DNA of 64,000 bases from Anolis carolinensis (taxonomy: Eukaryota), in assembly GCF_035594765.1 (NCBI RefSeq), contig NC_085847.1, forward strand, positions 5,704,001 to 5,768,000, given 5' to 3'. Below are positions 12,001 to 15,000 of this stretch, one piece after another. Made by a program: the position numbers. Within the stretch, counting starts at the first letter, position 1. Every line of letters begins with the position of its first letter.

Positions 12001-15000
12001 TAATAAATGTATTTATAAATAAATATCGTAAATAAATAATAAAATAAATATGTATATACAGTGCTGTAGGGTTACGGCGTGATAAGTCTGTGAATCACAT
12101 TCTTGGAATCTGGCAAAACACCAGGCTGGACGCGCAAAGAGGACTCCCTCGAGTAGATAGCCTGGACGATGGTCCCCTGGAAGGCGACTCCTGGGCTCTA
12201 GAGTCCACTGCCCTCCCACCCAAGCCAGTGGCCGCCTTTTCCGCCTACCTTCTTGATGGTGTTGTGCTTGCTGTTGCCCCGGTCGTTGCTCTCGTTGTGC
12301 AGGATATCCATGGCGGTCTCTCGCTCCTTCAGCTTCAAGGCCTCGATCTCCGTCTTCAGCTCGTTCAGCTGCTCCTGGAGGTGCTTGCTCTTCTCCATGT
12401 ATTCCACCCTGGGAACAAAGAGAGAGACCCTCTCGTTGGCCGCTTGGTTTGGGTCGAAGCTGCCGAAGCACTGACCGGCGCCAATGAGCGGCACAACGCC
12501 AATCCCCAATTCAGAAGCTGACGTCAAATGATATTCTTGGCCCCGGGGCTGCGTCAGGAGAGAGAGGAGGACTCACTTCTCCTTCTCGATCTCCATGGAG
12601 AGCCTCTTCATGTCGGTGTCCTTGAAGTCAAAAGAGAGGCTCTCGCTGATGAGTCCGTAGGCGGGCAGGTCGGCAGGCAGGGCGGTGGCGGGACTCGCAC
12701 TCATGGCCTGCGTGTAGGAGGACTTGTTGGTGATCTCCAGGAGCTTCTGCTTGGCCCTCCGCTCCGAGTCCCGGGCCTCCTGCAGGTCCTGCTTGAGCTG
12801 GTCGGCCTCCTTGGCCCTCCGCTCGGACTCCTCGGCCATCTTGAGCGCCAGCATCTCGGCCTCCAGGACCTTCTGCTCCATCAGCCGCTTCTCCTCTTCC
12901 GTCCGGATGGCCGTGGCCTTGATGCGCTGCATCTCCTGCTCAGCCTCGGCTGCCTTCTGGGCCAGGAGCTTGGCCTCTTCTTCTGTGATTTGGGCCTTTT
13001 CGGCCAGCAGGTCCGCCGTTTCCTCCGAGCGCATCTGGGAAAACAAAACCATCTCCGCTGGTAAACAATGAGCCCCTCAGGGCTAGCTAGAAACGATCTC
13101 CACAATCTGACCTTTCTGCAAGCAGGGATGGAGGACCATTTCAGTCCAGAAACCCATACAGATGAATTACAAAATCTGTCAAATCCCCGCAAGGAGAAAA
13201 CCAGCCTCCCAAGAGTCTTACTAAGGCTTCGTTGGCCATGGTTGCCTCTTCTTTCAGCTGCAAGAGCCGCCGCTCCAACTCGTCCCGGGTCCGCTCGGCC
13301 TCCTCCCGCATTTGTTTCTCTCGCGCCAGGCGCTGCCGCTCCATCTGCTTGCGGGCCTTCTCCTCCCGGGCCTGGGCCTTCATCTGCTGGACCTCCAAGG
13401 AGTCGGCCTTCCTCCTCCTCATGAACAGGTCGTGGTTCCCGATGCAGAGCTGGAGGATCTGTCCCGGCGAGAGGAGAGAGGCACCGAGAAGAAGGGGTGG
13501 CCTCCTCCCAGCCCAAGGGGGTGTCCCTCGCCCCCCTCTTCTGGGCCTCTGGGGCACCTACCAGCTTGTTGACCCGCAGCTTGGAGGAGTTGAACTTGAA
13601 GACGTCAATCTTTTTATCCAGGGGCTTAATGGTGAACTGGAGGAGAAGGAAGGCATATACATAGAGAGAGAGAGATGGAGAAGGCAGAAAGCAAGGCCTT
13701 CTTCTCCGAGCTGGAGAAGGGGGAAAGGAGACCTCAGAGCTGGGGAATGGCCAAAGTAGGCCTTCTTCTCAGAGCTGGAGAAGGGAGGAAGTAGGCCTTT
13801 TTCTCAAAACCAAATAAGGGGAAAGTTGGACTTGTTTTCAGAGCTGGACAAAGGGGAAAGCAAGGCCTTCTTCTCAAAGGGGGAGTAGGGGGAAAGTAGG
13901 CCTTCTTGAAGATCTGGGGGCATGGCAATAATAATAATAATAATAATAATAATAATAATAATAATAATAATAATAATGTGCTGTGGTTCCAATCAATTCC
14001 TGTCGAAAGGGGACTCCCACCTACCTCCTTATCACTGTAGGAGACGTTGCGGATCTCGTTCCACGGGAAGGAGATCTTGGGGGTCAGCTTGTTTTCGGGA
14101 TCATAGATATGGAGGCCCAAGGCATCCACACCCAAGAGCAGCTCGGTCCCTTTCTTATTCTGAGGGGAAAAGAAGAGGGAAAAAATATGTTTCTCGTCAA
14201 ATCCTTTCCCGCAGAACAAAGTCGGAGCAAAATAGACGCAAAGGAGAATCCGCTGGTGCAACGGAGCCCACAAACGGGAGAGCCTTACCCGAATGGCAAA
14301 ATAGTTGACGCCGTACATCTCGAGGTCCTGGGCAATCTTGAGGTACTCCATCTCCGCCTCATCCCTGCAAGAGAAAGGAGGATCCCCACTCTCTCCTTCT
14401 CTCAAGGCTTCTCCTTAAGCGCCCCCCAATATCCACAATGCTGGCCAGGCCTCCATCTCACCTGGCTCTCCCCCGGTGCTGGCCGTACCAAGCGGTGATC
14501 CTTTCCTCCCACATTTCCGGGGTCATCTGGTAGAGGTTGATCACCTGGAAGGAGGAGGAGGGGCCCCAAAGGAAGGCATTTAGCACATTCTCTCAGTACA
14601 GACCAGTGCAGTCTGCTGGTCAGAACGAGGCCAAACTAGAAGCACAACGTCCTTACCCGTTTCGGAAGCAGTTCCTCCTGAGCAAGGAAGCCACGTTTGT
14701 GGACACCGGGGTCATAGTCTCCGTACTGCAGGGACACACACAAAAAGAACGTGAACAGAAGCCAACAATGATGCAAATTGGACGCTCTCCCTCCCAGGCT
14801 GGATGGACTCCCAAAAATCCACAATAATAATAATAATTGGACGAGAAAGAGCATCCAGACCACAATATGGAGCTGACCTTGGCCTGGACTGCGTAAGAAG
14901 CAAGAAGGACGGAGGCTTCAGGGGGACAGTAGATCTTCTCGTCCAAAATCTGCTTCTTGACCTGCAAGAAGAACAAGGAGCTGACCTTTTGTTGGCTGGA

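What the first reader, a model, noticed from the sequence alone, without database searches (positions are those of the whole stretch)
12577..13458. Three NF2 introns (10, 12, 13) lost while intron 11 is kept
Seen: 13222-13458 is one 237-nt exon, equal to human exons 10+11 (114+123), reading ...[11 protein letters not shown]... without a break. 12577-13034 is one 458-nt exon covering human exons 12+13+14 (218+106+128 plus 6 nt). Other NF2 introns are in the expected positions. Known: intron loss is rare in amniotes and usually attributed to recombination with reverse-transcribed mRNA (3'-biased, adjacent introns). Inference: at least two gene-conversion events, or one cDNA that retained intron 11, in a LINE-rich genome.
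Basis: partly seen in the sequence, partly recalled or inferred. Interest (0 to 1): 0.68.

Follow-up and report, generated by a model that had tools for sequence, protein, structure and literature searches.

The report
Three introns lost from anole NF2
The green anole's NF2 (merlin) tumour-suppressor gene is squeezed into about 5 kb and has cleanly lost three introns that fish, frogs, birds, turtles, snakes and mammals still show, which is a tidy but ordinary case of lineage-specific intron loss.

Summary
On the minus strand, 13458-13222 is one 237-nt exon (human exons 10+11) and 13034-12577 is one 458-nt exon (human exons 12+13+14). Both have AG/GT borders, with a 187-nt intron 11 between them. 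The gene is Anolis carolinensis NF2 or a very close relative: 100% identity to the UniRef entry, FERM and ERM domains, and NEFH, AP1B1 and SNORD125 as neighbours.

All other human-type junctions are present. The coding gene spans only 5,341 nt, with introns of 97-754 nt.

Loss, not gain elsewhere, is the supported direction. Golovnina et al. 2005 report the mammalian exon structure in zebrafish, Fugu, Xenopus and, nearly, chicken. Annotated isoforms also mark the missing introns in other species:
- 47 of 165 proteins skip exactly exon 10, including a lacertid lizard and a sea snake.
- Variants that gain or lose Gln483 sit at the exon 13|14 junction, including a within-species pair in one snake.
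- Insertions sit at the exon 12|13 junction in snakes and a turtle.

The losses therefore fall on the iguanian branch. Their exact date and mechanism remain untested, because no eukaryotic genome collection was on hand. cDNA-mediated conversion is favoured and microhomology deletion is the rival. This is a new member of a known kind, of modest interest.

The parts
13222..13458 (-). Fused exon equal to human NF2 exons 10+11 (237 nt, phase 0). The former intron-10 site lies between 13345 and 13344.
   Evidence: AG/GT borders and a continuous reading frame. 79-aa translation found in 120 of 120 merlin proteins, full-length and ungapped in 86.
13035..13221 (-). Retained intron 11 (187 nt, GT..CAG, GC 0.48). 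No microhomology between its ends and the flanking exons.
   Evidence: No Rfam match below E = 0.1 in it.
12577..13034 (-). Fused exon equal to human NF2 exons 12+13+14 (458 nt, starts in phase 0 and ends after 2 nt of a codon). Former intron-12 site 12817|12816, former intron-13 site 12711|12710.
   Evidence: 100% identity over 152 aa to UniRef Anolis carolinensis NF2 (P0002). ERM_helical Pfam match.
13459..13561 (-). Retained intron 9 (103 nt, GC 0.70).
12409..12576 (-). Retained intron 14 (168 nt).
13562..16070 (-). NF2 exons 1-9 with introns 1-8. Exons: 16070-15957, 15626-15501, 15276-15154, 14961-14878, 14725-14657, 14544-14462, 14364-14289, 14159-14025, 13636-13562. Introns 97-388 nt.
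   Evidence: FERM_N, FERM_M and FERM_C Pfam matches. Intron 8 consists mostly of a 35-nt tandem repeat and (AAT)17.
10730..12408 (-). NF2 exon 15 (12408-12249, 160 nt), alternative exon 16 (about 11494-11450, carrying the isoform-2 stop) and exon 17 (10780-10730, including the stop), with introns 15 and 16.
   Evidence: The exon 16 donor could lie 3 nt further 3'.

Best explanation
This is the functional, syntenic NF2 (merlin) gene of Anolis carolinensis or a very close relative. Three ancestral vertebrate introns (10, 12 and 13) have been removed exactly, while intron 11 and the other twelve introns remain. The losses happened on the iguanian branch, after it separated from the snake lineage, in a gene whose introns had already shrunk to about 100-400 nt.

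The most likely mechanism is gene conversion of the chromosomal gene by reverse-transcribed NF2 mRNA in the germ line. That needs either two short conversion tracts (one over the 10|11 junction, one over 12|13|14) or one tract copied from a transcript that still held intron 11.

Shown: the structure, the identity of the gene, exactness at all three junctions, and the ancestral presence of the introns. Inferred: the branch of loss, which rests partly on gene models of other species, and the mechanism.

Consequence, also inferred: exon 10 can no longer be skipped as a cassette, and Gln483 can no longer vary through a tandem acceptor.
For: Structure:
- AG/GT borders and correct phases. Exon lengths sum to 1,791 nt, counted but never joined.
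- all 13 retained introns are GT..CAG.

Identity and orthology:
- 100% identity to the Anolis carolinensis NF2 entry.
- FERM_N, FERM_M, FERM_C and ERM_helical in NF2. An intermediate-filament rod at 41630-42742 and a beta-adaptin appendage at 55431-55997.
- SNORD125 at 54391-54488.
- a neurofilament-H-like tail ORF.

The introns are ancestral:
- PMC1315344, section 10 and the Figure 7 legend: one exon structure is common to human, chimpanzee, dog, mouse, rat, zebrafish, Fugu and Xenopus, and chicken differs only by fused exons 15+16.
- 47 of 165 compared proteins lack exactly residues 296-333 (exon 10). By taxon these are 3 teleosts, 1 frog, 1 turtle, 28 birds, 2 squamates (Podarcis muralis P0004, Laticauda laticaudata P0082), 1 marsupial and 11 eutherians.
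- Pitangus P0054 carries a 93-aa insertion at 333|334.

Intron 13 elsewhere:
- 31 of 165 proteins lack only residue 483, the first residue of exon 14.
- Within-species pairs with and without Gln483 occur in the snake Erythrolamprus reginae (P0104/P0116) and in Rhea. Chrysemys and Gavia also show pairs; those rest on the protein lists read against the names.
- The Naja naja model breaks at 482|483, and Chelonia P0241 has a 73-aa insertion at 481|482.

Intron 12 elsewhere:
- Insertions lie directly after Arg447 in Pituophis, Pantherophis and Pseudonaja.
- Lepidochelys P0260 has an 18-aa insertion at 447|448.

Exactness: no residue is gained or lost at any of the three junctions relative to other lizards.

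Background on mechanism: PMC3652778 (passages) describes precise removal and joint loss of adjacent introns as predictions of the cDNA model. It reports that multiple losses in one gene are rare: 2 genes in mouse.
Against: - No genomic DNA of any other vertebrate could be read here. Intron presence in other squamates therefore rests on annotated protein isoforms, not on loci.
- The two squamate exon-10-skipped models are Ensembl-derived. They could arise by aligning a skipped protein onto a fused exon, because the exon 10 part ends in CAG, which offers a formal AG.
- The classical 3' bias of the cDNA model is not met. Introns 14, 15 and 16, which lie 3' of the lost ones, are kept.
- Clustering is only marginal (40 of 560 = 0.07).
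- A kept intron between lost ones needs an extra assumption.
- No independent reads were available to confirm the assembly. The 'near'-length search found no protein at around 100% identity from another assembly (best 92%).
Confidence: 0.85

Rival explanations
1. Same three lineage-specific losses, produced by exact genomic deletion of very short introns. A double-strand break would be repaired by microhomology-mediated end joining between the exon end and the intron end, in three independent events and without any cDNA.
For: - The gene's retained introns are tiny (97-388 nt for introns 1-14). Small introns in germline-transcribed genes are the ones lost under this model (PMC3698931, abstract only).
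- If the lost introns had the GT..CAG ends of all 13 retained ones, introns 10 and 12 would each have had at least 3 nt of junction microhomology.
- The kept intron 11 has 0 nt.
Against: - Microhomology does not separate lost from kept. Retained introns 1, 2, 3 and 6 have 4-5 nt and are equally short, and lost intron 13 would have had only 1 nt.
- Three deletions that are all exact to the base are less expected from end joining than from homologous conversion.
- The ancestral intron sequences are unknown, so the values for the lost introns are hypothetical minima.
Confidence: 0.25
2. The introns were never lost here. The fused exons would be ancestral, and introns 10, 12 and 13 would have been gained in other vertebrates.
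For: None found.
Against: - Golovnina et al. 2005 report the 16/17-exon structure in zebrafish, Fugu, Xenopus, mammals and, apart from fused exons 15+16, chicken.
- Exon 10 behaves as a separate cassette in models from teleosts, a frog, a turtle, birds, two squamates and mammals (47 of 165).
- Junction-specific variants mark introns 12 and 13 in snakes, turtles, crocodile and birds.
Confidence: 0.02
3. Artefact: the fused exons would come from a mis-assembly, from cDNA contamination of the assembly, or from a partly processed retrocopy rather than the true NF2 locus.
For: No independent reads could be examined. The public Anolis protein model (P0002) lacks exon 2 although the exon is intact in the window, which shows that annotation here is imperfect.
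Against: - Thirteen canonical introns surround and separate the fused exons.
- The nearest N run is 15 kb away, at 28531-28676.
- The locus sits beside NEFH-like, AP1B1-like and SNORD125 sequences as expected for NF2. The human gene order is from my recall.
- The frame is intact and 88-94% identical to other amniote merlins in exon 12-14; the sturgeon entry is at 80%.
Confidence: 0.03

Closest known systems
Lineage-specific intron losses in mammalian genes (mouse/rat survey, Zhu & Niu 2013, PMC3652778; the earlier mammal survey it cites as ref. 30 is known to me only by recall)
   Same: Exact, in-frame removal of introns from an otherwise conserved, broadly expressed gene. More than one loss in a single gene, and two of them adjacent.
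   Different: - This is a squamate, not a rodent.
- Three losses occur in one gene with an intron kept in the middle.
- No 3'-end bias: introns 14-16 are retained.
- In that survey only 45 losses in 42 mouse genes were found among 148,176 conserved introns (passages), so a triple loss is uncommon but of the same kind.
[quoted passage not shown] 2005, PMC1315344)
   Same: The same gene family. The merlin gene is compacted to a few kb with fused exons: Drosophila 2.9 kb and 5 exons, Apis 8 exons.
   Different: That case lies in insects and involves many more losses over far longer times. Here an amniote keeps 13 of 16 introns yet spans 5.3 kb, less than Fugu (12.3 kb), chicken (25 kb) and human (95 kb) as given in that paper.
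Chicken NF2 with exons 15 and 16 fused (Golovnina et al. 2005, Figure 7 legend)
   Same: Another reported departure of a sauropsid NF2 gene from the common vertebrate exon plan.
   Different: It affects a different junction and rests on a 2005 gene model. In the anole window, exons 15, 16 and 17 are all separate.
Microhomology-mediated intron loss (van Schendel & Tijsterman 2013, PMC3698931)
   Same: Small introns in a gene likely to be transcribed in the germ line, and exon ends (CAG, AG|G) that could pair with intron ends.
   Different: It was described in Caenorhabditis and Drosophila. Here microhomology does not distinguish lost from retained introns.

Membership tests
NF2 / merlin orthologue (ERM family) | FERM N, M and C lobes followed by the ERM alpha-helical region | tested here: met
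   Pfam matches on the exon-bearing ORFs: FERM_N 8.3e-12; FERM_C 3.2e-11; FERM_M 1.7e-4, below the curated cut-off on that single-exon ORF; ERM_helical 1e-15.
NF2 / merlin orthologue (ERM family) | Best matches are proteins named merlin/NF2, not ezrin, radixin or moesin | tested here: met
   among the 120 listed, every protein that carries a gene name is called merlin, NF2, neurofibromin 2 or MERL. The Anolis carolinensis entry is at 100% identity and coverage.
NF2 / merlin orthologue (ERM family) | Conserved neighbourhood (NEFH, AP1B1 with SNORD125) | tested here: met
   That these genes are NF2's neighbours in human is from my recall, not from a call.
cDNA-mediated (reverse-transcriptase) intron loss | Removal exact to the base, reading frame and residues unchanged | tested here: met
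   No indel at 333|334, 446|447 or 482|483 relative to other lizards. The nearest Anolis-specific indel lies four codons away.
cDNA-mediated (reverse-transcriptase) intron loss | Adjacent introns lost together | tested here: inconclusive
   Introns 12 and 13 are adjacent, but 10 is separated from them by the kept intron 11. By chance, at least one adjacent pair has P = 0.35, and all three within four consecutive introns has P = 0.07.
cDNA-mediated (reverse-transcriptase) intron loss | Bias towards the 3' end of the gene | tested here: inconclusive
   The lost sites lie at 56%, 75% and 81% of the coding length, which is my arithmetic from the exon lengths. The three most 3' introns (14, 15, 16) are retained.
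cDNA-mediated (reverse-transcriptase) intron loss | Germline expression of the gene, and processed pseudogenes of the gene in the same genome | not testable with these tools
   No expression data and no anole genome on hand. A search listing (PMC4530865, abstract start only) says NF2 is expressed in virtually all organs and is needed for sperm maturation in rodents.
Microhomology-mediated intron loss | More junction microhomology at lost than at retained introns | tested here: inconclusive
   retained introns have 0-5 nt (intron 11 has 0). The lost ones would have at least 3, 3 and 1 nt, assuming GT..CAG ends.
Microhomology-mediated intron loss | Lost introns are small | not testable with these tools
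   Ancestral intron sizes are unknown. As a proxy, neighbouring retained introns are 103, 187 and 168 nt, and a Varanus model carries a 34-aa in-frame insertion at the intron 11 site.

The most novel reading that the evidence does not exclude
A single, partly spliced NF2 transcript that still carried intron 11 was reverse transcribed in the germ line of an iguanian ancestor and converted the chromosomal gene in one event, giving a 'lost, kept, lost, lost' footprint. This hard-wired the inclusion of exon 10 and of Gln483. The anole lineage would thereby have lost an exon-10-skipped merlin isoform that gene models show from teleosts to primates, making it a natural knock-out of a deeply conserved splice variant of a tumour suppressor.
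Probability: 0.15. Interest if true: 0.5.

Novelty: new member of a known kind. Interest (0 to 1): 0.33.

Why it matters
Multiple exact intron losses within one amniote gene are uncommon. The pattern here, two blocks of loss separated by a retained 187-nt intron inside a gene already compacted to 5.3 kb, is a clean natural test case for the competing models of intron loss: cDNA conversion against break repair. Dense sampling of iguanian genomes could show whether the three introns went at once or in steps. The case also shows that an anole cannot make the exon-10-skipped merlin isoform by ordinary cassette skipping. That offers a way to ask whether this widely annotated isoform matters. Beyond that it is an ordinary example of a known process, and it is already implicit in public gene models.

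Tried and rejected
1. Cluster members. I tried to see more squamate, and especially iguanian, isoforms through the listing of cluster members.

2. 'Near'-length search with the stop-to-stop ORF around exon 12-14.
- 164 proteins had E <= 0.001 and 120 were listed.
- The aim was to find ORFs from independent genomic contigs.
- Nearly all hits are unnamed, many cover only about 44-50% of the query (the size of exon 12 alone), and the best is 92% identical.
- Because they are unnamed and some may be human, I did not fetch or analyse them. I draw no conclusion from them beyond noting that no ~100% copy appeared.

3. Rfam. Nothing in NF2 or its introns except a chance CrcZ match on the (AAT) repeat, so no RNA gene explains why intron 11 is kept.

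4. Microhomology comparison: inconclusive.

5. Literature.
- 'NF2' with 'intron loss' gave 2 unrelated papers.
- 'intron loss' with 'Anolis' gave 32 papers; 15 were listed and none of those titles or abstract starts concerns NF2.
- 'intron loss' with squamate terms gave nothing relevant among the 12 listed.
- So I found no printed report of this loss.

6. Not done.
- No search was made with a joined (spliced) model. Every exon was translated and searched on its own.
- No cross-species genomic alignment was therefore possible.
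Full report
WHAT IS THERE

The finding lies on the minus strand. Reading 13700 to 12400 shows an acceptor AG at 13460-13459, then an open exon from 13458 to 13222 (237 nt), a donor GT at 13221-13220, and a 187-nt intron. A second acceptor AG follows at 13036-13035, then an open exon from 13034 to 12577 (458 nt) and a donor GT at 12576-12575. The stop-to-stop ORFs contain the same two peptides with non-coding flanks.

I translated every exon on its own and only added up the lengths. 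The gene has 13 constitutive coding exons of 114, 126, 123, 84, 69, 83, 76, 135, 75, 237, 458, 160 and 51 nt, 1,791 nt in all. There is also an alternative exon 16 near 11494-11450 that carries the isoform-2 stop. All 13 introns start with GT and end with CAG.

WHOSE GENE IT IS

The 152-aa translation of the 458-nt exon is 100% identical over its full length to the UniRef entry for Anolis carolinensis NF2. It is 88-94% identical to merlins of other lizards, snakes, turtles, birds, crocodile, marsupials and a caecilian, and 80% to a sturgeon entry (766 proteins at E <= 0.001, best 120 listed). Pfam finds FERM_N, FERM_M, FERM_C and ERM_helical on the exon-bearing ORFs.

The rest of the window supports this being the true locus and not a retrocopy:
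- an intermediate-filament rod at 41630-42742 (-)
- a long Lys/Glu/Ser/Pro-rich tail ORF at 36333-38237 (-) of neurofilament-H type
- a beta-adaptin appendage domain at 55431-55997 (+)
- SNORD125 at 54391-54488 (+)

By my recollection these are the neighbours of NF2 on human 22q12. The three N runs (28531-28676, 47065-47195, 49893-50074) are far from the gene and were left alone.

COMPARISON WITH THE HUMAN EXON PLAN

I did not rely on memory for the human junctions. Variant names in four papers (passages only) fix them:
- Exon 10 begins at c.886 (PMC10072238).
- Intron 10 follows c.999 (PMC10744041).
- Exon 11 is c.1000-1122, Met334-Leu374 (PMC9404601).
- Exon 12 ends at c.1340 in codon 447, exon 13 is c.1341-1446, exon 14 begins at c.1447 and exon 15 at c.1575 (PMC9184572).

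Hence 114+123 = 237 and 218+106+128 = 452. The anole exon is 6 nt longer. The extra codons lie in the variable linker at and just after the 13|14 junction. One separates sauropsids from mammals. The other is Anolis-specific, after residue 486 of the reference lizard.

The former intron sites are 13345|13344, 12817|12816 and 12711|12710. The split printed is one base off, and I corrected it by counting from the exon starts. No residue is added or missing at any of the three sites relative to other lizards.

LOSS OR GAIN?

No eukaryotic genome collection was available, so I used two indirect lines.

The first is the literature. Golovnina et al. 2005 (PMC1315344, section 10 read whole) state in the legend of Figure 7 that one exon structure is common to human, chimpanzee, dog, mouse, rat, zebrafish, Fugu and Xenopus. 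Chicken differs only by fused exons 15 and 16. The figure itself is not held.

The second is annotated isoforms, which betray exon borders. I aligned 165 proteins to a full-length lizard merlin (P0049, Hemicordylus, 595 aa). All carry a source name (a few only generic ones) except P0072. I dropped P0258 and all of P0121-P0240 because they are unnamed. Almost every internal length difference falls on a human-type exon junction.

For intron 10:
- 47 of 165 proteins lack exactly residues 296-333, which is exon 10.
- By taxon these are 3 teleosts, 1 frog, 1 turtle, 28 birds, 1 marsupial, 11 eutherians and 2 squamates (Podarcis muralis P0004 and Laticauda laticaudata P0082).
- A flycatcher model has a 93-aa insertion at 333|334.

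For intron 13:
- 31 of 165 lack only residue 483, the Gln that opens exon 14. This is the pattern of a tandem acceptor.
- Pairs with and without this Gln exist within single species: the snake Erythrolamprus reginae (P0104 against P0116) and Rhea. Chrysemys and Gavia also show pairs, read from the lists against the names.
- A cobra model breaks at 482|483, and a green-turtle model has a 73-aa insertion at 481|482.

For intron 12:
- Three snake models carry 1 or 4 extra residues directly after Arg447.
- A ridley turtle isoform has 18 extra residues at 447|448.

For intron 11, a Varanus model carries a 34-aa in-frame insertion at 374|375.

Together these show that the three introns are ancestral to bony vertebrates and still present in turtles, birds, crocodile and snakes. 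The losses therefore belong to the iguanian branch that leads to Anolis. By my recollection of squamate phylogeny, snakes, anguimorphs and iguanians form one clade, so the losses would postdate that split.

Two cautions apply. The two squamate exon-10-skipped models come from Ensembl, and could in principle be produced by laying a skipped protein onto a fused exon, because the exon 10 part ends in CAG. And I saw no isoform from any iguanian other than the single Anolis entry, so the date within Iguania is open.

From start codon to stop the gene spans 5,341 nt. Introns 1-14 measure 97-388 nt and introns 15 and 16 measure 754 and 669 nt. Intron 8 owes most of its 388 nt to a 35-nt tandem repeat and (AAT)17, and intron 15 holds a 104-nt tandem repeat.

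Golovnina et al. give 95 kb for human, about 25 kb for chicken and 12.3 kb for the incomplete Fugu gene. The anole gene is therefore more compact than the pufferfish one. Parts or all of at least three genes (NF2, a neurofilament gene and AP1B1) lie in this window; the ORFs I scanned between 17 and 35 kb matched no Pfam family. Very short introns are the ones lost preferentially under both main models (PMC3698931 abstract; PMC3652778 passages).

MECHANISM

Three removals that are exact to the base, two of them adjacent, fit conversion by a reverse-transcribed spliced mRNA. I rank this first.

The evidence is thin, however:
- With 16 introns, three random losses include an adjacent pair in 196 of 560 cases (0.35), and fall within four consecutive introns in 40 of 560 cases (0.07).
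- The three most 3' introns are kept, so the classical 3' bias is absent.
- The kept intron 11 requires either two tracts or a template that retained it. The Varanus model hints that intron 11 retention may occur in squamates, but that is one gene model.

The rival is microhomology-mediated deletion. It gains from the tiny introns and from exon ends that could pair with CAG intron ends: at least 3, 3 and 1 nt for introns 10, 12 and 13, against 0 nt for the kept intron 11. But retained introns 1, 2, 3 and 6 have 4-5 nt and are just as short. The test does not discriminate.

I found no reverse-transcriptase ORF among the 38 ORFs that I scanned, most of them among the longest. I also found no RNA family in the gene that could explain why intron 11 is kept. 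The fused exons have the highest GC content of the constitutive exons (0.63 against 0.47-0.60). I read nothing into that, because the helical region is rich in Glu, Lys, Arg and Ala codons.

CONSEQUENCE (INFERRED)

Exon 10 is an in-frame 38-codon cassette whose skipping is annotated from teleosts to primates. In the anole it is welded to exon 11. The only way to skip it would be the internal AG at 13346-13345, which is preceded by a purine-rich stretch without a single T in 30 nt. Likewise the choice of including or omitting Gln483 is frozen to inclusion. Whether those isoforms matter is unknown.

NOVELTY AND VERDICT

I found no printed report. 'NF2' with 'intron loss' gave 2 unrelated papers. 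'Intron loss' with 'Anolis' gave 32 papers, and none of the 15 listed concerns NF2. The squamate search gave nothing relevant among 12 listed. Supplements were closed.

The structure is nevertheless implicit in public gene models, and the process is well known. It is a real, neatly documented, lineage-specific triple intron loss in a compacted gene: a new member of a known kind, of modest interest. Its main value is as a test case for how introns are lost. The date, the number of events and the mechanism need genomic loci of related squamates, which these tools could not supply.

Noticed in passing
window 10730-16070 (-): The entire NF2 coding gene spans only 5,341 nt with introns of 97-754 nt. 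That is shorter than the figures a 2005 paper gives for Fugu (12.3 kb), chicken (25 kb) and human (95 kb).
   Followed up: partly
window 15501-15626 (-): Exon 2 (42 codons) is intact with AG/GT borders, yet the public UniRef Anolis carolinensis NF2 entry (P0002, 549 aa) lacks exactly these residues. This is either an exon-2-skipped model or an annotation gap.
   Followed up: partly
window 54391-54488 (+): A full-length SNORD125 box C/D snoRNA (67.3 bits against a gathering score of 56). It lies near a beta-adaptin appendage exon at 55431-55997 (+), so presumably sits in an AP1B1 intron.
   Followed up: no
window 36333-38237 (-) and 41630-42742 (-): A 635-codon open frame rich in Lys, Glu, Ser and Pro, with many copies of a unit of roughly 17 residues and some Lys-Ser-Pro motifs. 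An intermediate-filament rod exon lies upstream. This looks like neurofilament heavy chain with a lineage-specific tail repeat, and it explains the strong AT skew in the 36-38 kb window.
   Followed up: no
window 13671-13977 (NF2 intron 8) and 11525-11755 (intron 15): Intron 8 is mostly a 35-nt tandem repeat (6.9 copies) plus (AAT)17, and intron 15 holds a 104-nt repeat (2.2 copies). Without these expansions the introns would be near minimal size.
   Followed up: no
proteins P0004-P0257 (not the window): Models that skip exactly NF2 exon 10 (residues 296-333, in frame) are annotated in teleosts, a frog, a turtle, birds, squamates, a marsupial and eutherians (47 of 165 proteins). That suggests a deeply conserved splice variant, which I did not find discussed in the papers I read.
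   Followed up: partly
proteins P0112, P0113, P0118 (snakes; not the window): Three snake merlin models carry 1 or 4 extra residues starting with Trp directly after Arg447, at the exon 12|13 junction. Other snakes (Laticauda, Erythrolamprus) lack them. This is either a shifted splice site in part of the snakes or a modelling artefact.
   Followed up: no
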